DNA of 64,000 nt. It comes from Azolla caroliniana. Taxonomy: Eukaryota; Plantae; Polypodiophyta. Location of the stretch: the NCBI GenBank assembly GCA_043228905.1, contig JBHGNT010000008.1, positions 15,066,001-15,130,000 on the forward strand, given 5' to 3'. Position 1 is the first letter of the stretch. Each line of letters opens with the position of its first letter. The position numbers and the translations under genes are program-made. This document shows, in pieces, positions 1,737 through 27,162 of the stretch. The notes under the pieces were generated by a model. It did not search any database and had not been told where the DNA came from. It saw only the letters and a program-made list of their open reading frames with translations.

Positions 1737-1774
1737 CAGTTGGTGAACCCGACGTGAAGGCGGGTGGCAAGGAG

Positions 1775-4600: not shown

Positions 4601-4704
4601 GCGCATGTAACACTGTGTGTTGTGAATTGGATCTCAATCGAACGTTAACTGGTTGAAGCATAATCGGAGTCGGAAATCCTTACCACAACCACCCCTTTGG
4701 TGAA

Positions 4705-4740
4705 AACACATTCGCGTTCACAAGTGGAAGGATCGTGCAT
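4705..4740 (+). repeat. Left terminal inverted repeat (~36 bp)
   Basis: Reverse complement of ~25132-25167 and of ~47997-48032. Confidence 0.9.
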
Positions 4741-5160
4741 TCCACTTGTAGAATCTTCTTGAAAATATCCAAATATACCGTCTCTACAAAAATTGGATGC
4801 ATTAGTATCACATGTTCCACAACTTGATTAGAATTTGCAAATATAAAAATACATGATAGGTCTATGAGTGGAGATCATTAGAAATTCAAATAAGTTTGGA
4901 TGTGTTGATAAGTTAATGTAGGCATAATAAAGTTCAACAATGGCACAATATCTCACTAATGTGTGACATGGGAAACACTAAGTTAAAGACTTATATTAAT
5001 TTGGTAAGTTTTACAAAAATATGAGGATCTCAATCGGACGTTAACTGGTAAGTTAAAGACTTAAGACTTATATTAATTTGGTAAGTTTTACAAAAATATG
5101 AGGCGTACTTGTAACCATACTAATAAAATGAGTTATAATTTATACTTTGACCCATACTCA

Positions 5161-5436
5161 CATGTATATAATTGTGGACAATGTAGGATAGTGAACTTTA
5201 GGATAATGTGATTGGAATAACTAACTTATTAAGGTATTTAATACTTGTATTTAAAGTTGATCTAATCTATTCCTCAATTTGTTCGTATGGGATCAAACCA
5301 TATGTATATAATTGTGGACAATATAAGACAGTGAACTTTAGGATAATGTGGTGGAATTAACAAACCTATTAAGGCTTTCATACTTGTATTTAAAATTGAT
5401 CTAATCTATTCCTTAGGTGATTCACACGGGATCAAA
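5161..5436. repeat. ~140-bp tandem duplication in the transposon left arm
   Basis: ATGTATATAATTGTGGACAAT...GGGATCAAAC occurs twice, diverged. Confidence 0.8.
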
Positions 5437-5915
5437 CTCCGAACGATAACGCTACTGGAACTAAAGCGTATAAAAACATGTGGATAATGCGAGTGGAACC
5501 ATTATCAACACACTACACAATCTAAGCAGCAATAGAAGACAAACATAATAGTTTTAACAATAGAAGACAAAGATCCATAATATATGGACTGGTATATATT
5601 AGACAGAGAATGACAATCTCAACAATTGATCGCAAATAACAACATGGACAGTCATGGCAACAATTCTACGAGCATGTTATGTTAAGGTAAAGATTGACCA
5701 AAATCAACCTTACTTTAAACTAATTCATGTTTCTCCATATTGGTAGACAGCAATGTACGCGGTGAAACCAATGTCATAAGTCTACAAACCAAGTATATAG
5801 AAATAAAATTGAAACATATAGAAGATTATAAAGAATGGAATACACCAAGTAAAACCCAAAATTTGTATTAGTAATGTGAATTCCAAACAATACATTTCGT
5901 GAACAAAAAAGTCTA

Positions 5916-8900
5916 TTACATAGCAAGCAACTCGTCAATGTCATTTTCTTCTTCATCTTGTATAGAAGTCTCTTCGGCTATACAGGCATTGTCTTCCCCT
6001 TTTAGCCGAGCCAACGAAATATCTTCTATAAGCTCATCATCAAGCTCTATTAGCTCCCCCGGTTCCCCGGCTAACGAACGAATAGGATCTCATGAAGCAG
6101 GTTGAAACCTTTCGGTATCAGCGAGGTTCTTTGCACCCACCTCCTCGTCCTAGTCAGGGCACTCCCACAAAACCTTAATCCTCATGTTTATAAATATAAC
6201 TTGCTCCTCGTCCTTCTCCAATGCAACTATGTTTTTTAAGAGCTTAAATGCACATGCAAACGTTGTCCCTGTGAAGAAAGCAACAAGAAGAATTAGTTTT
6301 CAAACAAAAAGAATTAGTACTGGTTATCTCAAGATCGTTAACCTAGTTCGAGGAATACCTGTGCCAGAAAAGGGGTCTAATATATAATCTCCTTCTACAG
6401 AAAACATCTCGATAAAGCGCATCATAAGTCATTGAGGTTTTTGGTATGGGTTGAGAAGTCCATGTTCTGTCATGGTGACATGTCGCAATTTCCGTGTCAC
6501 TGCTGGATACACCAGCAGATTTGAACCTCCAACTTCATTATAATGCTCCTTGATTCTTTGTTTGTTTATTTCATCGAAGTAGCCAACCGTAATGTATTCA
6601 ATGGCATTTACGAACCGAAAGGTTGGCCCTCTATTGACATTGGTTTTTATCCTATAACAAATATTACATCGAGTTAAGAATAGATTGAACAATCTTAAGA
6701 AAGGCAATATAGTGAATGAGACTTATAAATAATCCTTACCATGCAAGGTTCTCGATGCCATGGCAACGAGATCTTAAAGCTTGAGCTACTGAGTACCCTT
6801 GGTCCATACTATGAAAGACAACTATCCTCCACAAGGATGCAATCGTTAGCTTAGCAAAATCCTTGACCATCTTCTCTAACTGTTTGAACCTAAATGGTTC
6901 ATCGTCGTATGATGACCCTGCCATTCAAAATCCATATGGAATATCAGCAATCATTAGCGTATATTCCTTCTTTGGCACTTTTTGGATCATGTCAACGACA
7001 TCGCCGCAAATCACGTTGTAGTAAAGATCTCTCGTAATATCCTTTTTGTGGCTAAATTTTTTGGAGTCATCTTCCTCAATTTCGTATGCCTTGACTAAGC
7101 GAGGATCCTTTTCTTTTCTAGCTCTCTCGAGATGTGCAAGGAAGGATGTCGGGAAATTGTGTATATCCTTAACTTCTCCTTGTTTCTTGCCACGGCACGG
7201 TTTCTAATAGAAGCAATAAGTCATCAAGTATTATTACACAACCTCTACATATGAGGAAAGCTTAATGAGAAACACCAATACTAACCCAATCCTTGAATGC
7301 AATAAAATACTCGGATAACGGGTTATATGAAGACGTTAGAGGATAATCCTCGGTCACTTGTTCCCAAGTTATACATCCAAGTTGTTTCATCATAACTTCT
7401 TGGATCTTCATGTACACCTTATGACTATGAAATTAGAAAACGAGATTAGAACTTTCAATTGCACCATATTGAATTCAATATCACTATTTGAAAGACTTAC
7501 TTATTGAACTCAGTGACCATTTCTTCAAAGCTTAAATCTTTTGCTACAACCCTTGACAAAACATACACAAGAAGCTGCTTGTCCTTAATACCTTGCATCA
7601 CTCCCCCCAAAGACAGCTTCATGTCGTCAGCCGCTTCTTCAATTGTCAAATCAATTTTCTTGGTCGCTTGTGACTTTAATTCTAGTTCAAGGTCTACCTT
7701 ACATTTCTTTTGTCGTTGACCCTTGACCTCCTTATTCTCCCACATTGAGAAAATTTGATCTTGTAGGTCCCATACTTCTCCATCTCTAAAGGCAAGTTGA
7801 AACCAGGATTCATATTTCTGAAGACCATCGGACTTAACATTATCATCCACCACAATGCCGACTTCATGCAAGCATTGACGTCGTAGGCCTGGATGTAGCT
7901 TCACACCGAACTTTTGTTTGATGTCCAAGTACTCGTGGTGGAAGAACCTTATACGCTCAATCAATGACATTTTCTGCCTATAGTCATTATCATTAGTGTG
8001 GTCCCATGCCAACAACTTTGCCTCTTTAGTTGTGAGGCCCACGTAAATTTTGCACTCGGCATACTTGAAGAAGAAAGTCGTTGGATGCTCTCTCAGAAGT
8101 TGCCGACATGCCTCCATAGAATGCGATCCATCAATTACAAAGTAATTGTATTGATCATGCTTTCTTATGTCGAATTCTTCAATGGTTTCACATTCTTCGG
8201 GATCCACCATAGCAATAAAAGGCACAACGGTAGCATATGGATTAATTTTCATTTTTTTCTTGACATTTTGAACATGCATTCGGTGCGGGTCTCTGATCTC
8301 AAGTGGTCTTCGTCCTGTTTTTTCATCTACAGGGGGCCGATGGATGTGTGTTATAGGCAAATTAAACACTTGCCCTTTTCCCACTAGTTTACGTTGCATT
8401 AACTCTCTCCATATCTTATTCTGCTCGAATGACAACACACCCGATGCCAACTATGCACCTGACGTCCCCCTATTGTCCTCATCTTCGTTTGAGCTTGATG
8501 AGTCGGACCCTGACATTTTAGTGGTCTTCTTTTTGGCTGGTCTTGATTGCACTTTAGATGCCCTTTTTGGGGCCTTCACTAGGGACGCAAAGGGCTCCCT
8601 TGGAGTTACATGGCCTTGTATATAAGGCCTCAAGGTGACAATAAGGTTTTGTGAGCCTTGTAGATATTTTTTAAAAGATTCTGGCCCACAAGATTCCTTT
8701 ACTAGTCGATCTTCAGAAAGGTACACTTTACGTACCTCCTTCGAGCACTCTATCATTACAAGAATGTTGGCTAAATCTAAAACTTCATAGTCAAATCGTA
8801 GAATACAACCATACATAAATGCGGTGTCATTTTCAAGCTAACCATCGCCCTTCTTCTTTGTTGTATAAAGCACGACTTTTTTCTTGGAATCGACGTACTG

Positions 8901-10133
8901 CATATACCATTCCTTTTTCCGTTAGATCACGATCAGGAAGGTCCTCACCACTAGTAGATGCTAACATTTTCTTTTGGCTAACATCATCGGATGGTTGAGA
9001 TTTTGTCTCCTCATTGAAGAGAAGCTTTTGTCCTCTCTTCATGTTCTGAGGAACTATTAGTTTCTGGGTCTCAATTGGAGAGCCCTAAATCCGGAGCTTT
9101 ATTTTCTTCACAAGTCAGTCCGACAAGTTCTCAAACGACCTATTTAAGAAAGGACGTGCGAAAATATAAGTTAGGTGGTTGCCTAGTTAAGGTTGTATAT
9201 TAAAATATACATAAGTAGGTCAAGACAAAAACTAGCAGGCGATTTATGCTAAACTCTAAATCTAGTAAGGGCGTCTCAACTTTGAAAATTATATATCCTA
9301 ATAATTATACAAGGATATGTATCATAGTGAAGGGTAATTATGGCTTATATTGATTCCATATCCATATTGTTGAGAATTTTAATACGATAGACTTAAATTT
9401 GGTATCATAAAGGTAATTTGTGGGTTATTTTCTATTATTTTAAGCTGTTATAGGCCATAAAACCTTTTTAAGTAAGGCCGCAAAATGTTACAAAATGTAG
9501 TAAAAGTCCCTAAAACAGTCTGAATTGGACATAGAATTGGTATCTTTGCACACATATACCAAATTGTTCCCCCAAAGACACAATATTCCTGTTTAAATTT
9601 TGTGTTTTATACAGTAACTCGATACGGTATATCGAGTTCATGTATAAAACACAAAATTGAAACAGGAATTCTATACAGGGTATCAAGTTCATGTATAAAA
9701 CACATACTTTACACATGAACTCGTTACGTCGTATCGAGTTCCTGTATGTAATACAAAATTTAAACAGGAACTCGATACAACGTATCGAGTTCTTGTATGA
9801 AACACAAACTTTAAACAGGAACTCATTACGACGTATCGAGTTCCTATATAAAACACAAACTTTAAACAGGAACTCGATACACCGTATCGAGTTCTTGTAT
9901 GGAACACAAACTTTATATAGGAACTCGATACAGTGTATCGAGTTCCTGTGTAAAACACAAACTTTAAACAAGAACTCGATACATTGTATCGAGTTCCTAT
10001 ATAAAACCCTAAACTTTAAACAGTAACTCGATATGTTGTATCGAGTTCTTGCGTGCTAAAACATATTTACAAAAATGTCCAGACTACCAGGCGCTTACCT
10101 GGATTCTTAGTGCTCGATTTTCTTCGAAGACAT
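5916..10133 (-). pseudogene. Six-exon ParB/Srx-like domain + beta-class N6A/N4C DNA methyltransferase (N6_N4_Mtase-like) fusion, ~970 codons
   Basis: Hand-spliced exons 10133-10099, 9139-7501, 7424-7286, 7203-6740, 6651-6359, 6268-5916. All five GT-AG introns preserve frame. Motifs: YFVIDGSHSMEAC (ParB-like), ICGDVVDMIQKVPKKEYTLMIADIPYG (motif IV region), NPYQKP, YILDPFSGTGTTFACAFKLLKNIVALEKD (motif I). Several premature stops and one frameshift near 8830. Confidence 0.88.
9586..10050. repeat. 51-bp minisatellite (~9 units), each with palindrome GAACTCGATAC-NNN-GTATCGAGTTC
   Basis: AGGAACTC recurs at 9766, 9817, 9868 and 9919. The array lies in intron 1 of the MTase gene. Confidence 0.92.
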
Positions 10134-10249
10134 GATTCTCGTTGTCGAAGCTTAGGGGGAGATGACAATTTGGTGTTGTGTGCTATGGGCTCTTTGTGCT
10201 TTGTCTGCTCTCTGTGCTCGTGTGCTCTGTTTTGCGCGTGAGTGATTGA

Positions 10250-10300
10250 GAAATGAGGAGGTCTTCCTATTTATAGGGATTGACCACTGTGGTTAAAGTA
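10250..10300 (-). promoter_or_regulatory. Putative TATA promoter of the ParB-MTase gene
   Basis: Minus-strand CCCTATAAATAGGAAGACCTCCTCATTT, conserved in copy 2 at ~40198-40225, upstream of the conserved exon 1. Confidence 0.6.
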
Positions 10301-11027
10301 ACCATAGTCACTTTAACTAGGGTTGGTAAGCTTAAGGTTAGTTAGTTAGACCTAAGAAAGAGTTAGTTAATTTATTTAGTACATAATTTTGAATGTACCA
10401 ATGACTCTCTAATGGATTTGATTTAAATGATGCTTATGAATGAATCGATGATTAAATACTCAAAATAACATATTAATGATTATTTTATACTCAAACTAAC
10501 ATACAATGCCTTTGATAGAGGTTCATGAATGAAACAATGATTGAATACTCAAAGCAACATTTTTATGACTCTCTAATGTTTTGTATTAAAGATATGGCCA
10601 TGAATGAACCAATGATTGAAAAGGCTTATATTTAAAATGGTGGGCATGAATGAACCAATGATTGAGAAGTTCTATATTAAATATGTTGATTCAACTTTAT
10701 ACTGACTAGTTTAAGTAATTATTAATATGTTGAATAAAATTATTAATATGGGTGCCATTAATTAACCAATGATTTTAACTTTAAATCAACATATATATGG
10801 CTTGGTAATGATTGTAATTATATTATACTTCATGGCTAAAGTAAATTTAATTTAAATTATATATTATAGGATTAATAATGTATAAAATATAATTGATTCA
10901 ACTTTATACTGACTAGTTTAAGTAATTATTAATATGTTGAATAAAATTATTATATTAAAAATAATATCTTTATTTATTGTATTAATATAATATTAAATAA
11001 TATAGACATTATATTGAGGGAGCTTCT

Positions 11028-11099
11028 GTTTAGAGAGGAGTTTATGTTTAGAGAGGAATTTATGTTTAGAGAGGAATTTATGTTTAGAGAGGAGCTTAT
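11028..11099 (+). repeat. 18-bp tandem repeat x4 upstream of the transposase
   Basis: GTTTAGAGAGGA(A/G)TTTAT repeated four times. Confidence 0.85.
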
Positions 11100-12635
11100 C
11101 AGTTTTTTATATTATCCCAAGCACATAACTTAAAGAGTTATGTGTGGACCTTAAGCCATAAGTGAAGACTCACCGTTCTCGATTGAAGAATATTGTTTGT
11201 CATCAGACTCTTCGTTTTCTACCGAAGAGTATTGTCTGTCGACAGACTCACCATTTTCTATCATAGAATATTGTCTCCAAATATGTTGTGCCCATGGTTG
11301 TATGTCAATGATTGGAAAATCAAAGTTGTGAGAATTAAGGCGATACTATTTTTCGATGATTGGTGATGAGCAAGACACTTACCTCGAGTGACATATGCAA
11401 CTAGTGTCTGACAAATGTATGGGGATCAAAGTATCATTCGAGTATTATATCTTCCATGCGCACCAGATATGTAGAATTGCATTCAAAATTGCGTTATGTG
11501 TTAGTAACATGCGGCTACATAGAGTACAACAACGTCTACTTAGTGGGGATCAGATGCTCAATTGTAAAGAGGTTCCAAGTATGAAAGGTGCAATTGGAAG
11601 TCATGCTATTGGTTGGATTAAAAGTTACTTTTAGTTAAATTGTGAAGTAATGCCCACTACAGGTAGGATGCACCTCTTTGATAATTACACACATCGGGAA
11701 GTTTATGATGTCTATTGATCTGATATAGTGGGCTCATGCAATAAATCTGTCACATATAGCCAATTCACAAGATTATGGAGAGCTCGGTTTAAAAATGTTA
11801 TCATTCTACGTAAAGTACGCATGGGGTATTACTCCATTTGTGCAAATCTTAAAAGTTTGGCGAAAGGTGCAAAGCCATCAATGGAAAAGGATATGAGTAC
11901 AGCCATGGTAGATAAAGGTTAAATATATTGTGAAGTCATGGTGATGAACGTTTATTTATATGTTGATCAATATGCAAGAATGGAAGAAGATGGATGAACA
12001 TTGGGTCTTAGCCAATGATCACATGAGATGGGAAAAAGAGTCATGTATGTGTGTCCACCACTGTTTGTAGTCTTCTACTTTGAGTCTCTGAGTTTGTGTT
12101 GAGAATCAAGCTCAACTTGGTCTAGTGTGTGAACTCACCTTGAGAGTGAAGAGACACTCCAACGGTCAAGAGTCACCATTATGTCACCACTTTGTATTCT
12201 AGCATTTAGTATGAGTCATAGAATCATATTCTATGACACATAACTTATGAGCTTTCACATTCCCCATGCTCCATGAGTCTTGTAGTTAATGAAGAGAGAG
12301 GGTGACTACATAAAGCACCCTCCTCCCACCTTGTATAACGTTGAGTCTTCCTCCTTTGTCAATATACTTTTACCTTGCGTATTCTCTGTGTTTCACTCAC
12401 TCTCTCTCTCTCTCTTACACACACACATAACTCACATCTCTTCCGATTCACAAGAATCCATCTCTTGATTCTTTACATGGTATCAGAGCGATTTGGTAGC
12501 TCGATCTAGCCATTCGCCTCATCATGATCGTGTGTTGTGCTCTATGCCGACGACCAAGAACCGGCTCATAGCTATCGTAGATTCGCTACATAGCTCGCTT
12601 TCGAAGAGAGAAGAAGAAGAAGAAGAATCGACATA

Positions 12636-15600
12636 ATGAATACTCAAATGGGGAACTCTCTCCCTACCGAGAAGTTGGATCAAAACAACTTTGCATCTTG
12701 GGAGTACAAGATGCACCAATACCTTGTCGGACAAGGCTATTGGAGCTACATCAAAGGAGCGCATGAAGACCGACCCGCCGAAGCGGCTCCCGGATACGCG
12801 ACATGGGAGCAAGCCGCAAGCCGCAAGCCGTGTGATGTATTGTTTGGCGATATGTGTTCACAACCACATGCTCGGTTACATTCGAGAAACCAAGACGCGA
12901 AGGAAGCGTGGGAAAATCTACGAAAGATTTTCACCGCCAACACGACCGCGAGGAAGCTTCAAGTCCGCCAAGAGTTGAACAACATTCAACAAAGGGACAT
13001 GTCCATCATGACATACACCTTGAAGATCAAGGAGCTTTGCGACTCACTCGGCTCAATAAGCGTAAGTATAGATGATGATGAGATGGTGCAAATATGCCTC
13101 GGCGGCCTCGCACCACGGTTCGACACGATGTGAACCGCCATTCTAGCACGGGAGAAATCTCCCTCCTTCTTCGAGCTCCAATCAATGCTATTGGTTGAAG
13201 AAAACCATGTGCGTACAAGGACCAATGAGTCGGAAGGCCACATGCTCTACACGCACTCTAATGGAGGAAGAGGATGCGGACGAGGTCCGACCTACGACAA
13301 CAACTCCCAATTTCGGCTGCAAAACGGAGGCCAACGAGGAGCCTTCGCAAGCAGGGGGAGCTTCCACTCTGGCCCAAGCCGTCAAAACGCAACCGAATGT
13401 GAATATTGCAGAAAGCTCGGCCACCACGAAGAAGAGTGCCGAAAGAAGATGCATGAATCGGCTTTCATAAGCTGACAACTCACGAATTATGCACACAACT
13501 CCGACTACGAAGATCGTGGCGGAATGTATGCACACAACTCCGACTGTGGCGAAATGTACGGGCACAACTCCGACTACGCAGATTGTGGCGGAATGTATGC
13601 ACACAACTCTGACCGTGGTGGAATGTTCATGATGAAACATAAAGCAAACTCTATGTCGCCCGCTACCTCAACTAGTGCCTCCGGTCTGGAAGACGTATGA
13701 TTCGTCGATTCCGGTGCCTCGAACCATATGACATCGCATCAAGAATGGTTCCGAGAACTTCGAGAGCTGGATTGACCCGGCTATGTCTAAACCGGAGACG
13801 ACACTACGCACCCAATTCGGCACATTGGCAATGTTCCGTTCAGAAAAGAAGGTAAGCAAAATTACATTAAAAATGTCTTGCATGTACCGACCATTACGAA
13901 GAATTTGGTCTCCGTCGGCCAAATTGTAGAGCAAGGGATGCAAGTTCGATTTAATCAAGGCGATTGCTTCATCGAAAAAGAGGGCTGACTCATCGCACGT
14001 AGACGAAGAGAGGGCCGGATGTTCATTCTCGATTCACGCGAGATGAAATCCTCCATGTTTGCGAAAAACACGAAAGCCGACTCTAACATAGAGCTATGGC
14101 ACAAGCGAATCGGCCACATCAATCTCAAGAAACTCAAAGCAATGAAATCGAAAGGAGTCGTCATCGGACTCCCGACATTTAAAGAGAAGGAGATTGAAGG
14201 TGTATGTGAAGCGTGCTAATTCGGCAAGCAACTCCGACACCCATTCCCAAAAGAGCAGAACGTGAGCAAAGGTCTACTCGACGTAGTCCATTCCGATGTA
14301 TGGGGATTGGCGCAGACGGCTACATTCGGCGGATGCCGATATTACGTGCTCTTCATCGATGACTTCTCTAGGCACTCTTGGATCTTCCCGATGTGGCAAA
14401 AGAGTGAAGTGTTCAGACACTTCCAAAATTTCAAGAATGAAGTCGAGAAAGCCACGGGCCGACATGTACGATGCCTTCAATCGGATGGCGGCAAGGAGTA
14501 CTTCTCGGACGATTTCATGGCGTAGCTCCGAAAGGAAGGAATTCGGCGAGAATTCACTTGCCGACACACTCCGCAACAAAACGGAGTAGCCGAGCGCAAA
14601 AATCGGCACATCCTCGAAGTAGCGCGGGCCATGATGAATGAGAAGCATATGCCCAAGTCATATTGGGCTGAAGCTGTAAATACGGCCGTCTACCTAATGA
14701 ACCGGTGCACAACATCCGGCGTGCACGAGGTCACTCCGCACGAAAAATACTTTGGAAAGAAGCTGGACTTATCGCACATCCGGATATTCGGCGCGATAGC
14801 GTACGTACAAATCCCCAACGAGAAGCGTCAAAAGCTTGACCCAAAGTCGGAGAAATGTATCCTCATAGGATACTGACTGGAGCAAAAGGGGTACAAGTGC
14901 TACAACCCCTCAAGTCGAAAATCTCGATTAAGTCAAGATGTTGTTTTTGACGAGTCCGCATCCTGGTATGTACCAGAGACAACTTCGACTCCGACTCCGC
15001 TCGACCCGGAATCCGCTGAACAAGAGATAGAGGATGAAGATCATTTTACGCGCATGTTCGAAGAAAGTCTGATCACGACCCGACTGAACGGACCACACGA
15101 GCCTCCGAGCGATCAAAGCACATCACGGCATAGCCTGAAGATGGACAAAGGCAAGGCGAAAATGGCGGAATACGAAGAAGATCACTTCGACGACGATGAA
15201 TTGACTCACTCACTTGACAGTGAGTTCGGCGGCTTCGACGTACCAATCGGAGCTAAGAAAGCCCTCATCTCTGCAAATGAAAAGCTCCATCGGTCCACCC
15301 GTGAAAAGAATCCGGTTAGCCGATTCGGCTACAATGACTACATGGCATATCACTATGCCTTTATGATGAAGGTGGCGACAATACGCGAGCTGGAAACATT
15401 CTCCGAAGCAGCCAAGGATCCGCGATGGATCGAAGCCATGAACGAGGAGATGCAGGCACTACACAAGAACGAGACTTGGGATCTCGTTCCCATCTCACCA
15501 CAAAAAAAGGAGATCGGATGCAGATGGATTTACAAAGTGAAGTACAACGCCGACGGCTCCGTCAACCGCTACAAAGCGTGACTCGTAGCGAAAGGCTACA

Positions 15601-16955
15601 CCCAAACGCATGGAGTTGACTATGAGGAGACCTTTGCCCCAGTGGCAAAGATGACGACGGTACGTACCGTAATTGCGCTTGCCACGGCGAAAGGGTGGCA
15701 CCTCCATCAAATGGACGTCAAGAACGCCTTTCTACAAGGAGAATTAGAAGAGGAGGTGTACATGATACAACCACCCGGCTTCGAATCGCGCATTCATCCG
15801 AAAGCTGTTTGCCGACTCCAGAAGCCACTCTACGGCCCCAAGCAAGGACCGCGTGCTTGGCATTCGAAGATAACGCAATATCTTCATCAAATCGGCTTCC
15901 GTATGTTAAAATCGGACAACTCCCTCTACATACGAAGCGATTGCGCAAGTCCGATCGTCATCATCTTATATGTGGATGACCTAGTCATTGGAGGTAAGCA
16001 TCTCATCGAAATCAATAAGGTGAAATCCCTCCTTTCCGGCAAGTTTGAGATGATGGACATGAAGGAGCTCCACTACTTCCTTGGCATCGAGGTAATTTCG
16101 ACTCTGGCCGGAATCATGATCTCTCAATGGCACTACATCCTCAACTTATTGTACAATTTCGGGATGGTTGAGTGCAAATCCGTGGCAACCCCGCTCGATC
16201 GTAATCTCAAACTAGACGCGAATTCCGGCACCAAAGCGTGTGAGCCGACTTAGTATCGGCAACTCATCGGGAGTCTCATCTACCTCACGATCACTCGACC
16301 CGATCTCAGCAATCCAGTCAGTCTCCTTAGTCAATTCATGCAAACACCGCGTGATACTCACTTGGATTGTGCTAAGCGAGTTCTACGATACGTGAGCGGC
16401 ACAATGGATTGTGGCATCCTCTACAAGACCGCGATGCCAATACGCCTCGAGGGTTACACAGACACCAATTGGGCCGGCTACAAAGCCGATAGAAGATCAA
16501 CCTCCGGATTTGTTTTCTCCCTCGGCAGCGGAGCAATATCCTGGAGTAGCCAAAAGCACCCTATCATCGCTCTTTCGAGTACGGAGGCGGAATATAGGGG
16601 CGCAGCCGTAGCTGCGTGTGAAGCCGTATGGCTCAAGAGGATTTTGAAGGATCTGGGTGTACCCATCAAGGATCCGAATCCCCTTTACTGCGACAACATG
16701 AGCAATATTTATCTGGCTCGGAACCCGGTGTTCCACCCGCGGACAAAGCACATCGAAGTGCACTATCACTTCATCCGAGAGCGCGTTCTAGCTGGCGATG
16801 TTGACCTACAACACATTAGCACCAATCTTCAAACGACTGACATCTTCACTAAAGCCTTAGGAGCCAACAAGCTATGGCAATTCATGACCAATCTCGGATT
16901 AACGATCCCTGAGCTGCCAAGCTTGAGGGGGAGTACTAAAGATATTACGCAATAA
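12636..16955 (+). pseudogene. copia gag-pol (gag, Zn knuckle, protease, integrase, RT, RNase H)
   Basis: [61 protein letters not shown]; multiple stops and frameshifts. Confidence 0.95.
13487..13625 (+). repeat. 39-bp tandem repeat (~3.5 copies) between gag and protease
   Basis: GTATGCACACAACTCCGACTACG...GTGGCGGAAT repeated in frame. Confidence 0.85.
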
Positions 16956-18137
16956 CGAGTGGATTACGCAACCACGCAACAAAGCCGTGAAGAAAGACGC
17001 AAGCCGAAGCACAGACTTCGTAACTACGCAAAACGCAAGCTGGAGCACGGATTCTGCAACTCCACATAAAGCGAGTCGACGCGGACTCCGGAATGTGAGT
17101 TGAAGCGGATTTCGGATACCGTCTGAAACTGACCCGACTTGAGCTTGAGGGAGTGTGTTGAGAATCAAGCTCAACTTGGTGTAGTGTGTGAACTCACCTT
17201 GAGAGTGAAGAGACACTCCAACAGTCAAGAGTCACCATTATGTCACCACTTTGTATTCTAGCATTTAGTATGAGTCATAGAATCATATTCTATGACACAT
17301 AACTTATGAGATTTCACATTCCCCATGCTCCATGAGTCTTGTAGTTAATGAAGAGAGAGGGTGACTACATAAAGCACCCTCCTCCCACCTTGTATAACGT
17401 TGAGTCTTTCTCCTTTGTCAATATACTTTTACCTTGCGTATTCTCTGTGTTTCACTCTCTCTCTCTCTCTCTCTCTCTTACACACACACATAACTCTCAT
17501 CTCTTTCTCTTCACAAGAATCCATCTCTTGATTCTTTACAGTTTGTTATTGGCCTATCATGGCCACAACTTTTATGATGTTGTCAGACTAATCATTTTCT
17601 CATGTATGTAGAATTTATACTAATGAAGAATATTGTTTTGGAAAAAAGAAGAAGGATATGAGTAAGAAGTTAGTACAGGAGCATCGTGAGGCACAATCAT
17701 TAGAATGAAAGAAGGTGATGCATCATAGAGAGAAGTGTTTGAAGAGGCCTGAACAATATGTGTGCTTAATGATAGATGGCATGGACCAGAAGACGACGTG
17801 CTTGCCATATATCCGGAGGCTCCCCAAAGACATCAATGATGAGTACCTTGTTCAACTGCACTTGGTAGGATGCTTGGCTTATATAGGTCTGTTGGACCTC
17901 ATGCCTTCATTACATACCCTAATGTTCACAATGACTCTAATGTAACAGTTACAGTGATTCACCGAGTTTTGATATCTTGGGGCCAACCATTTCCCCCTGT
18001 TCTATACATTCAATTGGACAATACTGCTACAGAGAACAAAAATTCAACTGTGTTTGGCTATCTAAGTATGTTGGTCAGCCAAAGATTGTTTAGAAAAGTG
18101 AAAGTCGATTTTCTTTTGGTTGACCACACACATGATC

Positions 18138-21100
18138 TGACAGGAACTACACGCTCTCTATGAACAACGCTCGGCCACAATTGAGTCAAAAATCAAACAC
18201 AGAAAACGGATAATGAACGCACGACACAAAGGAGAGAAGAGTACACAGGATGTTTAATGTGGAAAACCCTGAGAGGGAAAAACGACGGGAGTTCACAGAC
18301 TCCAAACTATCACTATATCACAATGATTACAATAGTGAGCTCATGGAGGCAACGACCTCGTGCTTACGATCTTCGCCACAGGCGGCGGTTACAACAGAGG
18401 CAACGACCTCTTCCTCTCTCTCTCTCTCTCTCTGTACACTGTTACGCGCTCTCTAGTCTTGCGCCAACAAGAATGACAACAACCTACTTCTAAGTTTGCC
18501 CTAAGTCATATTTATACTAATATGACTTTTTGGCTATTTACACATATAGCCCCGATGGACTCTCAGAAAACATATTTACGAATATGTCCCTTTATCCGGT
18601 GAGCACTTCTCACCGAGCCTTCATCATCCGGCTCTTGCCGGGTACTCCTCATCCAGTTCTCACCGGGTCTTCCATAGCCGGGTACTCCTCATCCGGTTCT
18701 CACCGGGTCTTCTGAAGCCGGGTACTTGTCATCCGGTTCTCACCGGGTCTTCCGTAGTCGGGTAGTTTACTCATCAGTATTGTTCTTCTCACTTCCCATC
18801 CGGAGGGACCTGTTTCCTAACAAACTCCCCCTTCACTCCGGTATGGGATGTCTTACTAGTCCGATCTGCTTCCAGCATGCATCCAGCTTGTCGGGTATTA
18901 GTACTTTGGTCAGGATATCTGACCCGTTCTCGGCCGTGTGGATCTTCGTCAGCGTGAACTCCTAGTCATCTACTCATTCCCGGATCCAGTGATACCTTTG
19001 TTGGATATGCTTCGTCCTGGAATGGTAGGCCGCATTCTTAGCAAGGTGGATGGCACTTTGACTGTCACAATAGAGCCGGTATTCATCTTGCCGGATACTA
19101 AGCTCTCCGATGAAGTCCTTCATCCATAATATTTCCTTGCCGACTTCCACAGCCGCCGTGTACTCCGCTTCCGTGGTTGACAATGCAACTGTCTTCTGCA
19201 GCCTCGACTGCCACGAAACAACTCCCCCTACATATGTCATTACATACTCGTATATAGACCGGTTGGTATCCACATCAGCCGACATGTCTGAATCGGTAAA
19301 ACCGTCAAGTGAAGGTTTGCCGGAACCGAATCAGAGACACATATTTGAAGTTCCCTTCAAGTACCGGAGTATCCATTTGACCGCGTTCCAGTGCTCCTTG
19401 CCGGGATTGCTCATAAACCGGCTCACCACTTCGACTGCGTAGCCTATATCCGGCCGGGTACACACCATTGCGTACATCAAGCTCCCGACGGCAGAGGCAT
19501 ATGGAACCTTCATCATATCATCCTTCTCTGCTTTCATCTTCGGGCTTTGCTTACCGGATAATCTGCAGTTTGCTGGGAGTGTCGATTCGACTGGTTTTGC
19601 TTCTAACATGTTGAACCGTTGAAGCACCTTTGTTATGTATTTCTCCTGTGACAGCCACAGTTGCTTCGTTGGCTGGTTCCGGATGATATGCATCCCCAGC
19701 ATTTGTCTTGCCGGACCCAAGTCTTTCATCGCGAAGGTTCGGTTGAGAGCCTTCTTCAGCATCCATATCCTGGCTTAGTTCCGTCCGACGATCAACATGT
19801 CGTCCACGTACAGAAGGAGTATCAGGAAGTCGCCTCCTTCGAACTTCTTCACAAACACACAGTGATCAGCCTGTGTCTTGTGGTACCCTTGATCGGTCAT
19901 GAAGGAGTCGAACTTCCGGTACCATTGTCGAGGAGCCTGCTTCAGTCCGTACAAGCTCTTCTTCAACCGGGAAACTAGGCGCTCCTTCCCTTTCTCCGCG
20001 AATCCTTCCGGTTGCGGCATGTAGATCTCCTCTTCGAGGTCACCGTGAAGGAATGTCGTCTTCACGTCCAGCTACTCTACCTCGAGGTCCATGCTTGCTG
20101 CTATACTCAGCATCGTCCGGATGGAGGTCATCTTTACTACCGGGGCAAATATCTCGTCGAAGTCCACGCCCTTCTTCTACTGGAACCCCTTCACCATGAT
20201 CCTAGCTTTGTATCTCGGGGGTTTTCCGGCATCTCCCGGTTTCAACTTGTACACCCACTTGTTTCGGAGTGCCTGCTTTCCTTTTGGCAACTCCACCAAT
20301 TCGTACGTATGGTTCTCAGGCAGGGAATCCATCTCATCCTGCATGGCACTTAACCATTTGCAGCTGTGGGTGTCATCCTCCGCTTCTTCGAAGCTTTCTG
20401 GCTCCCCTTCATGGGTTAGCAGCACATGCTCTGCATCCGGAAATCTCCGGGGGGGCCTTCTCTCTCTGAGAGGATATCTCCGTCTTTGGGCTTCGGTAAT
20501 CGGCCCCTCCATTCGCTCTTCATCCGAATCCGATTTGGGGTCTTGGCCGGTTCCGGTTTCAGCTTCCTCTACTTCTTCTTCTGCCGGTTCGGTATCCTCA
20601 CCATAACCGACTGGTTCCTCGAGTGCTAACCGGTCTCTTGCTAGTTGGGTCTGCTCATCGTAGAATCGATCCTTACCGGTCGACTCGGAGTTCATTATCT
20701 TCTTCTCTGACTCCCAGTCGGCGAGCGTCTTGTCCTCCATGAAGATAATATCTCTATTCCGGAATTCCTTCTTGTCGGCCAGGTCCCACACTCGGTAGCC
20801 GAAATCATCGTCGCCGTAACCGAGGAATATGCATGGCCGGGTCTTTGGATTCAACTTTCCTCTCCGGTCCTTAGAACATGCACGTACGCAAGACACCTGA
20901 ATACTTTTAGATGCCGGTAGGCAACTTCCTTACCGGTCCAGACTCTCTGTGGCGTGTCTCCGTCCAAGGGTACTGAGGGTGATCTGTTTATCACATATGT
21001 CGTCGTCGACAGTGCCTCAGTCCAAAACTTCTTGGGTAGTTTTGCATGCGCTAGCATACTCCGGACCCTCTCCATTATGGTCCGGTTCATCCTCTCGGCC

Positions 21101-23632
21101 AGCCCATTCAGTTCCAGCGTCTTCGGCACGGTAAATTTGACCCGGATTCCCTTCGAGCGACAATACTCCTCGAACTGACCCCAGTATTCACCTCCATTAT
21201 CTGCGCGAACCATCTTCAGCTTCCGACCGGTTTCTCTTTCCACTCTCGCGTGGAGCTCTTTGAAGACGGATAGCACCTAATCCTTCGTCTTCAATGGTGT
21301 GGTCCACAGCTTCCAGCTGCGGTCATCTATGAACGTCACGAAGTACTGCGATCCTACATGTGACTTCCTGTCCACTTGACACACATCAGTATGCACCAAC
21401 TCCAGTGGTGCATTACGTCTCATCGGTGGCCTTGGTCTGAAGGAGGTCCGGTTTTGCTTACCGGCCAGACAATCAGTGCACTTCTCCAAGTGCACGTTCT
21501 TCAATGGAATGAGGTTGTCTTCTGCAAGCCTCTTCATCCCCTTCTCGCTCATGTGACACAGTCTCTTGTGCCACAACTCACCGGTAGTGTCAGATGCCAC
21601 GTTCACTTCTTCCGGGCATAACCGGGCATTCATCAGGTACAACGTGTTGATGTTCCGGGCCCGAGCCACAATCAGGCTTCCTTTGCTGAACTTCATAACA
21701 CTGTTCCGGATGCTACCCGTGTAGCCTTCATCATCTAGCCGACCGGCTGATATCAGGTTCAGACGAACCTCCGGAACGTGTCGGACATCCTTCAGCAGCA
21801 ACTTGCATCCGGTTGGTGTTGTCAACCATACGTCACCTATGCCGACAATTCAACATGTACCTTCATTCCCCATCCGGACACAGTCGTGATCACCGGCTGA
21901 GTAGGATGTGAAGCATTTCCGATCCAGGGTAAGGTGGAACGACGCTCCAGAGTCGACCACCCAGGTCATCTCGTCGCCGGCAAGGTTTAGCTCACTCTCC
22001 TCAATGATGAGCATCAACTCTTCTTCACTTGCCGCGATTGCCGTCGTTCCCTTCTGGTCTGTTCCCCTCCGGTCTTTACCGTTCCGGTCCGGTGTCCGCT
22101 TCGAATTGGTACCGTCGGTTTCCTTGTCTTTCCGGAAATGCCGACAGTTCTTCTGGAAGTGTCTCGGCTTGCCGCAATAGAAGCAAGTAGGCCTCCCCCT
22201 TGACTTTGACCGTTTCCCCGACTTTTCCCGGTTCTAGGGACTACGGTTTCTTAGTCTTCTGCGTTCCGATTCGGTAAGGAGCGCTTTGGAGTCGGAGCTC
22301 GTATCCTTATCTTTCCGACGCGCCTCCTCATCTAGCAAGCTCGACTTCACTCTTGCTAGGGATAACCAATTCCCTTCCGGCCCGGCGTTGCCCAAAGTGA
22401 CAACCAACATCTCCCAGCTATCCGGGAGGGAACCGAGCAGGAGTAGCACTAGTACCTCATTGGCGAGAGGTACTTCCAATGATGTTGCCTGGTGTATCAG
22501 CCCCTAGAAGGTATTCATGTGCTCCGCCATGCTGGAGCCATCTTGGTACCGGAGTCTTACTAGCTTTCGTAATACCGAAACCTGGTTAACAACATTTTTG
22601 TTCTGAAACATAATGTCGATCTTCTCCTAGAGCTCATGAGCCTTGCTCTCTTCATTGAAGTTGTTGTATAGACTCATGTCGATGAAGCACCATATGTACG
22701 CCGTTGTCATCATGTGCATCACCTCCCATATCATGGCGTCGATTTTTTCTGGTCTCTTGTCCCCAAACTGAACCAGCAACCAAAGACCTTTAACCACGAG
22801 CATGTCTCTCATCTTCGACTTCCACACCGAATAGTTGGAGCCGGTAAGCTTGAACATGCCTCCCAACTATTCGTCCATTTTCTATGTCGTTTTGCTCTGA
22901 TACCACTTTGACAGGAACTACACGCTCTCTATGAACAACGCTCGGCCACAACCGAGTCAAAAATCAAACACAGAAAACGGATAATGAACGCACGACACAA
23001 AGGAGAGAAGAGTACACAGGATGTTTAACGTGGAAAACCCTAAGAGGGAAAAACCATGGGAGTTCACAGACTCCAAACTATCACTATATCACAATGATTA
23101 CAATAGTGAGCTCACGGAGGCAACGACCTCGTGCTCACGATCTTCGCCACAGGCGGCGGTTACAACAGAGGCAATGACCTCTTCCTCTCTCTCTCTCTCT
23201 ATACACTGTTACGCGCTCTCTAGTCTTGCGCCACCAAGAATGACAACAACCTACTTCTAAGTTTGCCCTAAGTCATATTTATACTAATATGACTTTTCGG
23301 CTATTTACAAATATAGCCCCTATGGACTCTCAGAAAACATATTTACGAATATGTCCCTTTATTCGGTGAGCACTTCTCATCCGGTTCTCACCGGGTCTTC
23401 TGTAGCCGGGTACTCCTCATCCAGTTCTCATCGGGTCTTCCGTAGCCGGGTACTCCTCATCCGGTTCTCACCGGGTGTTCCAAAGACGGGTACTTGTCAT
23501 CCGGTTCTCACCGGGTCTTCCGTAGCCGGGTAGTCCACATTCGGTTTCAGCCTCGGCCTATCGGCCTCGGCCGAGTTTACTCATCAGTACTGTTCTTCTC
23601 ACTTCCCATCCGGAGGGACCTATTTCCTAACA
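18138..23632 (-). mobile_element. Full-length Ty1/copia element B (Tnt1/Tork-like)
   Basis: LTRs 18138-18822 and 22909-23632, TSD TGATC, tRNA-iMet PBS at 22894-22905, PPT ~18823-18837. Inserted into the transposase HTHD|HID motif. Confidence 0.95.
18833..22878 (-). pseudogene. copia gag-pol of element B
   Basis: CFYCGKPRHFQKNC, DSGASFH, WHKRLCH, LVHTDVC, FLHGDLEEEIYM, LYVDDML, HSRTKHI; several stops. Confidence 0.95.
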
Positions 23633-25131
23633 TGATCATATAGATAAGATGTTTAGCACATTCTCCAGACAGATGTCTCGGCATGATTCTTTCACATTAC
23701 CAAAACTATTTGATGTCTTTTGAGATGCATATACACTACGCCCAAAAGTGTTACACTTGAAGGAGGTATATCACTTTAAGAGATATATATCAGATGGGGA
23801 TGTTGGGAATGTTAAAGTGCTAAACAAAATTCATCTTCTACAAGATGGGAACTCTAAGGTGGTTGCTAGTTATTACTTTGTATGTCGAGTACAATTGTCC
23901 ATGGAGTTAAACAAATGCCAATTGAGAAGAAAGGACAGTTGCATAGTGGCTTGGTATCGGAACAAAAACAATTATGGCTCCAAGCCTTAGAAGAAAAAAG
24001 AAAGCATATTGAGGCCGCCAAGAAATATGCCACACAACAAGACACGTCATGGTGGGATGTATCTTTTAGTGATCAGAAAGGAATTATAGACAATTATGTA
24101 TTTGGTGATAATTGGAATTTGGAAACGCCATTCACATGGTCGCTACAACATGATCGTGTAAATAAAACTTTGGAGCAACCAGCAAATGCGATTAATGACA
24201 GTTTGGTCCATCGACAACAAAGAGACATTTATGTGGGACCAAGGATGACCAAAGCAACCGAAGCTAGATGGCAAGGCAATTTGCAAGAGCTCGCGGCGGG
24301 GATGTTGATTGCAACGCCGGCTAATGAGAACTCACATGGCCACCAATTTTGAGTTGGTAAAATTCTAGAAGTGCTAATGCATGAAATAGAAAACACTTGC
24401 AAGTCTATAAATGTTCATGGGTACAACACTAGAAGTGCAAATGCTTTTACAGGTAAGTATACATTAGAGATGATTGAATGCCCAACGAAAAGGGGAGGTA
24501 GGAAGAGGAAGCGAAACATTTGTAACACCTTGACCCTTGATATCTTTGATGTGGATATCATCGTGTAGGACTTTATGCTTACAGAAGCCGGATGATTAAG
24601 GAAGTCAACAATAGATATAATAAAAGAAATATTACCAGGTCTACAAGGTGGCTCGAGTCAAAGGCCAACAAGATCTGCTACATATAATCTAAAGTCAAAC
24701 CATTTGGTTAATGATGAAGATAATGCACTGATTGGTACATCTGAGGATGACGAGTAGGAATCGTCATTGTATATTAGTTATATTCGTGATTCTCCGTAAA
24801 GGAGTGATCATGAATGTATTTTTGGCTATTAAGTGTAACTACATTCCGCTTGTAACAAATCGAGTAATATAAAAGCATGTGTTTTGAATTCTTATGATTT
24901 CTAAAAAATCGATTCTTATAAAATAACATTGGTTGTAAACTTTGTGATATAAATTTAGAATGTAACATTCTGAAATTCCTCTTCTTTTATTTATTTCTAA
25001 ATCACGAAAATAGTGGATTTTTAACCTTTTTCATAGTATGTTTGAACATGTATGATATTGGTATCAATGTGTTTTGTAAAATCATTGAAAAAGTGCTAAA
25101 ATCAACCAAAATATTCCTTATCCTTCCATTT

Positions 25132-25167
25132 ATGCGTGATCCTTCCACTTGTGAACGCGAACGTGTT
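25132..25167 (-). repeat. Right terminal inverted repeat, copy 1
   Basis: Matches the left TIR; followed by TGAA TSD. Confidence 0.9.
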
Positions 25168-25269
25168 TGAAGTGATCCGGAAGGACACCCTGTGTTACTG
25201 GCTAGTTCGGCCCAAGAGTAACACAGTTTTGGTGACCACGATTCTTGTGGAAAGCAGCGAACAACGGGG

Positions 25270-27160
25270 GGATGGATGACTAGGCCAACGAACGACCTAG
25301 TCGTTGAATGAGCAAGAAGGCTAGCGGAGAGACTACGGAAGCGAGAAGCTTACCAGCAGGCAGTTGAGTAGATCTGGTTGGATCGGTCTTTTTCCGGCGC
25401 GATACGGCGGCTTGCGGAGGAGTCCCTCCGGTTACAGTACAATCCATACCCAGACGAAGGAAGCAATTTGAGCAATTTGTGGTACGCGGAATCCATCCTA
25501 GAGACCCTCACGGCGAGTGAGAGAGATTATCGGGAGCACAGTGCTCAATCCAATTATATGGAGCAGTCATGACACCCCCAAAGGCCCGGAAGACGACGAT
25601 TCGGAAAACATATGAACGCCAGAACCGGAAACGACAAAACCGGCATCCCCGGTTAACGAAACAGGGCCGGACGAGCAAGTACCAACACCAACAAACAACC
25701 AATTGGAAACTCAGGAGGAACAGGCTCCGATATCACCACCCGAGTCACCAAAAAAACAAGAGGAGTGGGTATCGACAGAATAGATAGACGATGACACCAT
25801 TCCGTACCAATATTCGAAATATCGGGATGACCCGGACACAGAAGCCCACATATACGCTTTTCTCCAAACATAGGAGACGAACCATGTTTCCCAACAACTA
25901 AATGAAGTAGAGGCCGAATGATGAGAGATAGCAGAATTTGGCATGACCTTGGAGGGATTGGCGGCACGATGGCTCTCCAGGCACCTCCCCGGTAGTATTG
26001 ACACATTTGAAAAGTTAAAGACAAGGTTTCTACGATTCTTCCACATACAGCTGTATCAAAGGGAAATTGTTGGGCAATTCTATACGACACGACCTGACCC
26101 AACAGAAACCATTCAGCAGTTCGTCATACGGTTCCAGGAAATGCATAGTCAACTCCCTAGAGCACCAACGGAAGAAGAAGCGTAAGCGGTATTTTTGGCG
26201 TCGCTCCGGGAACCCCTTCGAATAGTGTGTGTAGTCATAGATTTTCGGATCAACACAATAGACCAGGTCATTGACCGGGTCATGGACATGGACAAGAACA
26301 GTTCTTGGCGGACGATGGGGGCACACTCCGACGACCACTCCCTACCGAAGAGGACCTACGGTTTTGCGAGGCGGTTCAATGCATGACGTGCCTTAATTCC
26401 GGGCATTCAATGGTAGAATGCACAATGAGATCACAATGCATGCTATGCCATTCCCGGTCACACACAATGAACCACTGTGAATATAATCTGCTAAACCAGC
26501 AGGCGAGACCAGTCCGGCTTATTGAATCCCGGACCGACTGACAAGACGAAGAAGAACGGTTCCAGTGAGACGATCGTTACAGACTGATCCAAGACATCTT
26601 ATACGACGATAGACGGCATGAGTATGATCGGGACCGTAATGATAGAGGTCGGGACTATAACCGTGATCGATATGATCGTGATTACTCCCCCGGTCATAAT
26701 CGGAGGAGGGATGACCAACAAGGAGACTATGCAGATTCGGATAGGCGCCAGATGGGATATCGAAACAACCGATGCTACAATAAAAAATGGAATGCTCGAA
26801 GAGAGGAGTGTCGGGAACCGGCAAAGGATTATCAACGGGAGCCAGATAGAAATATCACGGGTGTTCAATTGAAGCAACGAAGATTATAGGAGCCCAGTCG
26901 GGCAATATCCGGTTTTCAGCTGGGTAACACGGCAAATGCGGAGACTAGTAATACAAGGAAGGTGTATTGCTATTATTGCAGGCAAGACCGACACTACAGC
27001 CACCAGTGTTCGGTCAAGAACAACAAGAAGCAACTGCCAGTTAATATGGTTATTGCGGAGGTGACCGACATTTAGCAGGTCACCGCTCGGTCAAAAGGAA
27101 AGTTGGCCGAATGGGAGGCTTAGGAAGCAATCCAGAAGCAAGCCACGGAATGGATAGAGA
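25270..27160 (+). pseudogene. Degenerate gypsy gag with three CCHC zinc knuckles
   Basis: TLEGLAARWL...FEKLKTRFL, CMTCLNSGHSMVEC, CMLCHSRSHTMNHC, CYYCRQDRHYSHQC. Confidence 0.75.
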
Positions 27161-27162
27161 GG

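What the first reader, a model, noticed from the sequence alone, without database searches (positions are those of the whole stretch)
4705..25167. Eukaryotic TIR transposon carrying its own ParB-like/amino-DNA-methyltransferase gene
Seen: 36-bp TIRs and a TGAA TSD enclose two divergent genes, a DDD transposase and an intron-containing ParB-like + beta-class amino-MTase fusion, plus a palindrome array. Removing nested inserts leaves about 9.2 kb. A second diverged copy keeps the same layout, so the MTase looks like standing cargo of the family rather than a one-off capture. Established: beta-class MTases write 6mA or 4mC in bacteria and phages. Bacterial-derived 4mC writers are known in bdelloid rotifers and in Marchantia sperm, and some DIRS-type elements carry adenine MTases. 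Inference: this cut-and-paste family may write its own non-canonical epigenetic mark (self-marking, anti-silencing or transposition control) and could be a vehicle for such enzymes in early land plants. I do not recognise this arrangement as a described system but cannot exclude prior reports.
Basis: partly seen in the sequence, partly recalled or inferred. Interest (0 to 1): 0.95.

Follow-up and report, generated by a model that had tools for sequence, protein, structure and literature searches.

The report
Fern-type transposon carrying ParB-methyltransferase gene
This is a broken copy of a multi-copy cut-and-paste transposon family, likely from a fern, whose members carry a conserved second gene for a bacterial-type DNA methyltransferase fused to a predicted ParB-fold domain, plus evenly spaced palindromes that this protein likely binds to mark the element's own DNA; the same gene layout was described in a brown alga in 2025, so this extends a known design to land plants.

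Summary
The anatomy is real: 36-bp TIRs (33/36), TGAA duplication (empty site seen), a DUF7869 DDD transposase and a divergent six-exon ParB-like/beta-class amino-methyltransferase gene; 9,198 bp without three inserts. Both genes are dead here. Outside loci do: 16 of 16 methyltransferase loci with at least 1.2 kb upstream carry the divergent transposase; catalytic motifs are invariant in 24 of 24 open reading frames; dN/dS about 0.05. A CGATRC-N3-GYATCG palindrome array lies in the gene's first intron, spaced at multiples of about 10.3 bp. Best reading: the protein binds these palindromes and writes N6-methyladenine on its own element; binding, activity and expression are untested. It is not new in kind: Ectocarpus Sola1-1_Ec32 has the same layout (PMC12477816), and red-algal Plavaka elements pair ParB genes with inverted-repeat arrays. 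New against my ten paper searches: land-plant occurrence (homologs in ferns, Ginkgo, Riccia, Chara), selection evidence and a defined candidate site. This scan had already noted the family many times on other pieces of this genome.

The parts
4701..4704 (.). left target-site duplication TGAA
   Evidence: empty site
4705..4740 (+). left TIR, 36 bp, begins AACAC
   Evidence: related ends in 30 of 80 loci
5916..6268 (-). methyltransferase gene, last exon (end of motif I, acidic tail); two in-frame stops
6359..6651 (-). exon 5: target-recognition region, NPYQKP, motif I D-x-FSGTG; one stop
   Evidence: PF01555 E 6.5e-9
6740..7203 (-). exon 4: motif IV ADIPY; one stop
7286..7424 (-). exon 3: helical linker
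   Evidence: matches Ceratopteris protein P0007
7501..9139 (-). exon 2: N-terminal region and ParB/Srx-like domain (about 8030-8380) followed by helices; frameshift and stops
   Evidence: fold on homolog
9140..10098 (-). first intron of the methyltransferase gene (predicted), holding the palindrome array
   Evidence: donor at 10098, acceptor at 9139; same mini-exon and donor in 9 of 18 loci
9615..10048 (.). array of nine palindromes AA-N-Y-CGATRC-NNN-GYATCG-R-N-TT, period 51-52 bp
10099..10133 (-). predicted first mini-exon, ATG plus 11 codons (one stop in this copy)
10268..10275 (-). TATA-like box TATAAATA of the methyltransferase gene
11158..11899 (+). transposase pseudogene, N-terminal piece (start inferred from intact homolog P0009)
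11900..17664 (.). 316-bp insert between 13-bp direct repeats, itself interrupted by Copia 1
   Evidence: loose ends at 11899 in four runs continue into the transposase frame
12097..17540 (+). nested Copia LTR retrotransposon 1 (LTRs 97.6% alike)
17665..18137 (+). transposase pseudogene, catalytic core (DGMDQ, QLDN, HTHD)
   Evidence: PF25273 E 3.3e-26
18138..23632 (-). nested Copia LTR retrotransposon 2 (LTRs 94.4% alike)
23638..24799 (+). transposase pseudogene, C-terminal piece
25132..25167 (-). right TIR
   Evidence: 38 and 55 contigs with disagreeing loose ends exactly at 25167
25168..25171 (.). right target-site duplication TGAA
39926..48032 (+). second, truncated copy: four palindromes, mini-exon (about 40155-40190), transposase pseudogene, right TIR (47997-48032); no methyltransferase body, no left TIR; LTR-type insert at about 41300-44925

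Best explanation
The locus is a dead copy of a multi-copy Sola-like cut-and-paste transposon family, likely of a fern, in which a conserved second gene encodes a predicted ParB-fold domain fused to a beta-class DNA amino-methyltransferase that likely binds the phased palindromes in its own first intron and likely writes N6-methyladenine on the element. Shown: element boundaries, mobility of the family, linkage of the two genes, purifying selection on both domains, conservation and spacing of the palindrome. Predicted: exon structure and folds. Inferred: the spliced protein (about 970-1000 aa) acts as a dimer on the two-fold site; spacing at 3, 4, 5, 6 or 7 helical turns puts the dimers on one face of the DNA next to the shared divergent promoter; the mark or the bound protein keeps that control region usable in a host that methylates CG and CHG, and may feed back on the gene's own transcription. 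6mA is preferred to 4mC because motif IV starts with D.
For: Linkage: 16 of 16 loci with >=1.2 kb upstream carry a divergent transposase; 16 of 23 with >=0.8 kb. Trees of 12 loci give the same three clades for both genes at UFBoot >=99. Of 38 loci tested, 36 gave all four GT-AG introns; in the 24 stop-free frames kept, ADIPYGFR, GGSH, NPYQKP and LFSGTGT are invariant although overall identity falls to 52%. dN/dS median 0.05 (15 of 276 pairs), 0.034 for the ParB-like part (12 of 276), 0.18 for the N-terminal part (14 of 276). Model of homolog P0036 (pLDDT 77) matches CcrM (Z 22.8), M.BceJIV and MboIIA, and over residues 100-239 PadC ParB domain (Z 9.3, rmsd 2.8, 98 residues), KorB (8.6) and sulfiredoxin (7.6); Foldseek on viral proteins adds ParB/Srx hits; Atlas best named hit ParB_N 0.94 after DUF3723 clusters were left out. 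Palindrome: 212 hits in 46 kb upstream against 14 in 284 kb elsewhere; present in all three subfamilies while only 9 of 55 masked intergenic pairs give any blastn hit; best period 10.28 bp over 167 gaps, and 0 of 20,000 random draws reached the phasing of the 28 distinct gap values. The TIRs lack the motif. Host silencing: in this copy CG 19/120 and CHG 12/79 sites show transitions against CHH 36/600 and A/T 53/1555. Published precedent for the hypothesis.
Against: No binding, activity or modified-base data. Motif IV is D-I-P-Y, not the canonical DPPY (PMC8885841); the six prokaryote-type hits I read have DPPY, DPPF or SPPY and 23-46% identity in partial alignments. The arginine of the ParB G-x-x-R motif (motif recalled; GGHQR and AGHGR in three phage proteins) is S in 24 of 24, so a CTP sliding clamp is doubtful. 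Profile comparison with three phage ParB domains gave probability 0.14 and Pfam gave no ParB hit. The fold is of a homolog about 31% identical, not of this protein. The 80 contigs share one accession series and many have high coverage, so they may be one campaign and assembler-collapsed majorities, not single live copies. Linkage was tested only from the methyltransferase side. Gaps arise by tandem duplication and are not independent. Two of three loci with both TIRs and flanks show no 4-bp duplication. This copy was itself deaminated and inactivated.
Confidence: 0.55

Rival explanations
1. The methyltransferase is active, but the palindromes are bound by the transposase or a host factor; the mark acts elsewhere, for example on the element ends to time transposition after replication (as Dam does for IS10, recalled) or on RNA.
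For: No tool links the protein to the site. Eukaryotic amino-methyltransferases often shifted to RNA (PMC4738411). The transposase has its own cysteine-rich N-terminal region.
Against: The motif is absent from the TIRs, lies in the methyltransferase gene's own intron, and in red algae similar arrays lie beside ParB genes. Its flanking letters change by subfamily.
Confidence: 0.2
2. The protein binds the array but works mainly as a DNA-binding regulator (autorepressor or anti-silencing scaffold); the methyltransferase fold has little or no catalytic output, like the DIRS1 methyltransferase domains.
For: DIPY variant; Ginkgo copies have DIPH; DIRS1 domains are judged inactive; altered ParB nucleotide motif.
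Against: D, P and Y of motif IV and the whole SAM-binding motif are invariant in 24 of 24 with dN/dS 0.05; Chara homologs keep D-x-P-Y and two distant homologs have DPPY.
Confidence: 0.13
3. Same as the best explanation, but the mark is N4-methylcytosine on the CG of the palindrome, which would directly block host 5mC there.
For: PvuII (Z 19.5) and rotifer N4CMT (Z 18.9) fit the model nearly as well as the N6A enzymes; the site has two CGs.
Against: Known eukaryotic 4mC writers have SPPY; top sequence and fold hits are N6A enzymes.
Confidence: 0.1
4. One-off capture of a host or bacterial gene by a single element, now decaying.
For: This copy is a pseudogene and the second copy lacks the gene body.
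Against: 16 of 16 linkage, matching deep clades, 2,846 to 12,678 contigs per run laid on 4400-12200 in four runs with cover in all 30 bins, purifying selection.
Confidence: 0.02

Closest known systems
Sola1-1_Ec32 of Ectocarpus (PMC12477816; passages, abstract, outline and supplement rows seen)
   Same: Sola-type element, 4-bp target duplication, termini starting AAC, opposite-strand gene for a ParB-like domain plus N4C/N6A methyltransferase (1104 aa), same self-marking hypothesis.
   Different: 21.5 kb with 282-bp TIRs and AACCG ends, against 7.6-9.2 kb, about 36-bp TIRs and AACAC ends; host has negligible 5mC, while this host shows CG/CHG decay; the word 'palindrom' does not occur in that paper; sequence homology of the two proteins not tested.
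Plavaka (EnSpm) accessory genes of Bostrychia (bioRxiv 10.1101/2025.02.11.637652; passages seen, supplements not seen)
   Same: ParB-like gene beside tandem arrays of inverted repeats; PF01555 methylase on the same element; proposed self-modification.
   Different: Different transposase superfamily; ParB is fused to a 2OG oxygenase and the methylase to SET, on separate genes.
Sola superfamily (PMC10741241 and PMC3845634, passages; the 2009 original not held)
   Same: DDD transposase, 4-bp target duplication, short TIRs, size near 2-9 kb, known from the moss Physcomitrium.
   Different: Sola1 AWWT target preference not met (TGAA, TGTT); extra gene; no Repbase comparison possible.
Phage ParB-N6_N4_Mtase fusions and ParB-terminase loci (PMC4738411 passages; three phage proteins)
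   Same: Domain order ParB-N then beta-class methyltransferase.
   Different: About 410 aa, no introns; only the methyltransferase part aligns, at about 23-29% in the 30 rows listed; palindrome absent from 3 of 3 phage records.
MpDN4MT1 of Marchantia and N4CMT of bdelloid rotifers (passages)
   Same: Bacterial-type beta-class amino-methyltransferases in eukaryotes.
   Different: Host genes with SPPY that write 4mC; no ParB domain; not transposon cargo as described in the passages seen.
Other epigenetic cargo of transposons: DIRS1 methyltransferase domains, TET/JBP on KDZ and Plavaka (reference title only), VANDAL/VANC (recalled; named in earlier scan notes; not read)
   Same: Element-borne chromatin or DNA-modifying proteins.
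   Different: Different enzymes and elements.

Membership tests
Sola superfamily | DDD transposase | tested here: met
   DGMDQK, LDNxxRENK and GHTHDHIDQ in 11 of 16 transposase-bearing loci, two of three in one more, four too short; low-confidence model (pLDDT 44) gives only RNase H/integrase/IstA-type hits, best E 1.3e-3
Sola superfamily | 4-bp target-site duplication | tested here: met
   TGAA with empty site; TGTT in L026; no match in L039 and L056
Sola superfamily | TIRs of 11-1124 bp, size mostly 2-9 kb | tested here: met
   36 bp; 9,198 bp here, 7.6-7.7 kb in L039 and L026
Sola superfamily | Transposase groups with Repbase Sola proteins | not testable with these tools
   no Sola reference sequence in hand; DUF7869 occurs in 0 papers of the library
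Sola1 subgroup | AWWT target preference (PMC3845634) | tested here: not met
   TGAA and TGTT, two sites only; the Ectocarpus Sola1 row also gives another bias. Not filed as Sola1 proper.
Beta-class DNA amino-methyltransferases | Motif order IV, target-recognition region, I, with F-x-G-x-G | tested here: met
Beta-class DNA amino-methyltransferases | Fold | tested here: met
   homolog model against CcrM Z 22.8, rmsd 3.5, 217 residues; Foldseek E 1.5e-11
Beta-class DNA amino-methyltransferases | Catalytic (D/N/S)PP(Y/F/W) | tested here: inconclusive
   D-I-P-Y in 24 of 24: D, second P and Y kept, first P replaced
Beta-class DNA amino-methyltransferases | Methyl transfer to DNA | not testable with these tools
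   needs assay
ParB/Srx superfamily | ParB-N fold | tested here: met
   PadC Z 9.3, KorB 8.6, Srx 7.6 on a homolog model; against:
ParB CTPase clamps | G-x-x-R arginine patch (motif recalled) | tested here: not met
   GGSHS in 24 of 24; GGHQR or AGHGR in phage ParB
ParB CTPase clamps | Binding to a palindromic parS-like site | not testable with these tools
   candidate site defined, binding untested
Eukaryotic 4mC writers (MpDN4MT1, N4CMT) | SPPY motif | tested here: not met
Sola1-1_Ec32-type elements | Opposite-strand ParB plus amino-methyltransferase gene of about 1,000-1,100 aa between TIRs with 4-bp duplication | tested here: met
Sola1-1_Ec32-type elements | Common descent with the Ectocarpus protein | not tested
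   protein not in hand; none of the 20 of 150 hits whose names I looked up was from a brown alga

The most novel reading that the evidence does not exclude
Streptophyte Sola-like transposons have carried, from charophyte algae through liverworts and ferns to Ginkgo, a self-addressed adenine-methylation device: a ParB-fold reader docks on helically phased intronic palindromes and its methyltransferase writes 6mA there, shielding the element's bidirectional promoter from the host's CG/CHG silencing. It would be a transposon-encoded, sequence-targeted DNA-methyl writer active in land plants and a defined source of plant 6mA.
Probability: 0.3. Interest if true: 0.85.

Novelty: new member of a known kind. 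Interest (0 to 1): 0.55.

Why it matters
The published algal cases are descriptions with a hypothesis. This family supplies what a test needs: open reading frames, evidence of selection on the catalytic motifs, and an exact candidate site conserved across subfamilies at 52% protein identity. It sits in a host that methylates CG and CHG, so it bears on how transposons resist plant silencing and on whether any plant DNA carries enzyme-written 6mA or 4mC outside Marchantia sperm. A compact reader-writer with its own docking site would also be a possible epigenome-editing part.

Tried and rejected
No whole genome is held, so no genome-wide TIR census. Viral contigs: no relative of either gene; prokaryotic genomes: no transposase relative. 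No RNA holder listed; of two guessed-RNA runs, one laid 2 contigs outside the genes and one laid none: no evidence either way on expression. Sequence-level ParB detection failed: Pfam, NCBIfam and PHROGs on P0001, PDB profile search, hhalign. First Atlas search gave DUF3723 clusters (0.96, 0.95), a lead not followed; 0 papers hold both DUF3723 and ParB. Transposase model too weak for classification. No close prokaryotic donor found. The second copy as proof of cargo: rejected. Summed read depth was not used as a copy number. Rows dropped before counts: 53 of 133 relatives were not returned; 38 of 80 loci were taken for exon mapping, 2 failed, and of the other 36, 24 were kept (stop-free, over 900 aa; L036 and L037 dropped as C-terminally short; three loci with 1-4 stops and one more short one with a stop were excluded); 261-264 of 276 pairs were outside the dS range 0.1-1.5. 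Paper searches that found no land-plant report. Iyer 2011 (cited for green algae) and Bao 2009 were not seen, nor the bioRxiv supplements or Repbase; any of them may already list plant members. A search of earlier findings by sequence gave nothing.
Full report
Observation. The element runs from 4705 to 25167. Its TIRs match at 33 of 36 positions and TGAA flanks both. The duplication is real: in run X4, 37 contigs (and 1 in X18) carry the left-flank letters directly before 25168, the empty site. In runs X1 and X4, 38 and 55 contigs end their match exactly at 25167 with disagreeing continuations (agreement 0.40 and 0.38), as expected of many insertion sites. Two Copia elements and a 316-bp insert interrupt the transposase; without them the element is 9,198 bp. 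Both genes carry stops and frameshifts. Against two relatives, this copy shows transitions at 19 of 120 CG and 12 of 79 CHG sites, 36 of 600 CHH sites and 53 of 1555 A/T sites, the pattern of host CG/CHG methylation, which is what Ceratopteris has (PMC9477723, passages).

Correction to the finding. The second copy (39926-48032) keeps the transposase, right TIR, TATA, first mini-exon and four palindromes, but no methyltransferase coding body and no left TIR occur elsewhere in the window. It cannot show standing cargo.

Host and range. No genome is held. Named homologs of the ParB-like part: Ceratopteris 65% and Ginkgo 45%; among the 20 of 150 representative hits whose names I looked up, 7 Chara braunii, 3 Riccia sorocarpa, 3 Adiantum nelumboides, 2 more Ginkgo, 5 unnamed. 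Nine of 30 proteins scanned have PF01555. A fern host is an inference. Whether the Chara, Riccia and Ginkgo genes lie in transposons was not tested; several copies per genome only suggest it.

Cargo test. A scan of metagenome contigs gave 133 relatives, 80 kept. All 16 loci with at least 1.2 kb upstream of the gene carry a divergent DUF7869 transposase; 7 more with 0.8-1.14 kb do not, within the range of gaps seen in positives (553-1842 bp). TIR-like ends starting AAC were found in 30 of 80 loci with four patterns drawn from observed ends; of three loci with both ends and flanks, L026 has a 4-bp duplication and L039 and L056 do not. Trees of 12 loci give the same three clades for both genes; inside the six-member clade they differ or are unresolved; linked genes share history, so this shows long residence, not co-adaptation. 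Four runs from four coded organisms laid 12,678, 12,199, 2,846 and 3,233 contigs on 4400-12200. Limits: the contigs share one accession series and may be collapsed majorities of many copies, and the test starts from the methyltransferase, so elements without it would not be seen.

The protein. Thirty-six of 38 loci gave four GT-AG introns at the window's positions. In 24 stop-free frames (932-1007 aa) ADIPYGFR, GGSH, NPYQKP and LFSGTGT are invariant; dN/dS is 0.05 and 0.034 for the two domains in the 15 and 12 usable pairs of 276. A model of homolog P0036 matches beta-class N6A enzymes first (CcrM Z 22.8) and 4mC enzymes close behind (PvuII 19.5), and ParB/Srx domains over residues 100-239 (PadC Z 9.3). 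Sequence methods did not detect ParB. The ParB arginine motif (recalled) is altered, so I do not claim a CTP clamp. The transposase has the three acidic motifs and a weak RNase H-like model.

The array. AA-N-Y-CGATRC-NNN-GYATCG-R-N-TT occurs 212 times in 46 kb upstream of the gene and 14 times in 284 kb elsewhere, 8 of those in one locus beside a nested element end. It persists across subfamilies whose intergenic DNA mostly no longer aligns (9 of 55 pairs with any hit). Gaps cluster at 31-33, 40-42, 50-52, 63 and 72 bp; best period 10.28 bp. Following earlier scan notes I tested its position: a TATA box, an ATG and an 11-codon exon with a GT donor precede it in both window copies and in 9 of 18 loci, so it likely lies in the gene's first intron. 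The TIRs lack the motif, and 0 of 3 phage records with ParB-methyltransferases have it.

Mechanism. Most likely (0.55) the fusion protein binds the palindromes as dimers on one face of the helix and writes 6mA on its own element near the shared promoter, which would help it stay expressible or regulate itself. Binding, activity, base and effect are all inferred. Rivals: another binder and another target (0.2), non-catalytic regulator (0.13), 4mC (0.1), one-off capture (0.02).

Known or new. An earlier scan note pointed to PMC12477816, which had also been listed. I read the passages: Ectocarpus Sola1-1_Ec32 has an opposite-strand gene for a 1104-aa ParB-like plus N4C/N6A methyltransferase protein, and the authors propose that such proteins bind and modify their own transposon, citing green and red algal cases; its supplement gives AACCG ends and a 4-bp duplication. 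The Bostrychia preprint reports inverted-repeat arrays beside ParB genes and a PF01555 gene on Plavaka elements. So the kind is known. My ten searches found no land-plant report; Iyer 2011, Bao 2009, Repbase and the preprint supplements were not seen. I file it as Sola-like, not Sola1 proper, since the AWWT preference is not met and no Repbase comparison was possible. The scan had already noted this family on other pieces of the same genome; those notes are not independent support.

Verdict. Real, family-level, under selection and testable, but a new member of a described design, and this copy is dead. Interest 0.55.

Noticed in passing
window 11887-17664: A 316-bp insert between 13-bp direct repeats, with no terminal inverted repeat evident at its ends, lies in the transposase and was itself hit by Copia 1; its nature is unexplained.
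   Followed up: partly
window 4601-4704 and 25168-25400: The element inserted into another repeat whose other copies show the empty site; that repeat was not identified.
   Followed up: partly
L012:3280 and L031:4033-6332: L012 holds the end of an element of another subfamily with eight palindromes downstream of its methyltransferase; L031 holds a second, 5'-truncated transposase with its own TIR: nested or adjacent family members.
   Followed up: partly
P0026 (Chara braunii, 1825 aa): Two tandem ParB-methyltransferase units in one annotated protein (DFPY and DLPY), possibly two adjacent copies fused by the annotation.
   Followed up: no
P0001 residues 270-593: Best Atlas look-alikes are fungal DUF3723 clusters (0.96), a family I recall as Starship cargo; DUF3723 may be a ParB-like domain shared among transposon accessory proteins.
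   Followed up: no
P0112 (unnamed source): A homolog of the helical region is fused to a SAM (sterile alpha motif) domain.
   Followed up: no
L039:180-7773: A compact subfamily (TIR starting AACACCGGG) has one palindrome and an intergenic gap of about 650 bp, so a long array is not obligatory.
   Followed up: partly
window 942-4600, 25200-39900, 48250-64000: The rest of the window is nested LTR retroelements (Copia, Gypsy and an LTR pair 99.7% alike at 942-1736 and 3806-4600 with a gag-like frame); no host gene was noticed in the ORF lists.
   Followed up: no
window 24350-24650: The transposase has a beta-rich C-terminal region that earlier notes call BAH-like; Pfam gave no hit and the model is unreliable there.
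   Followed up: partly
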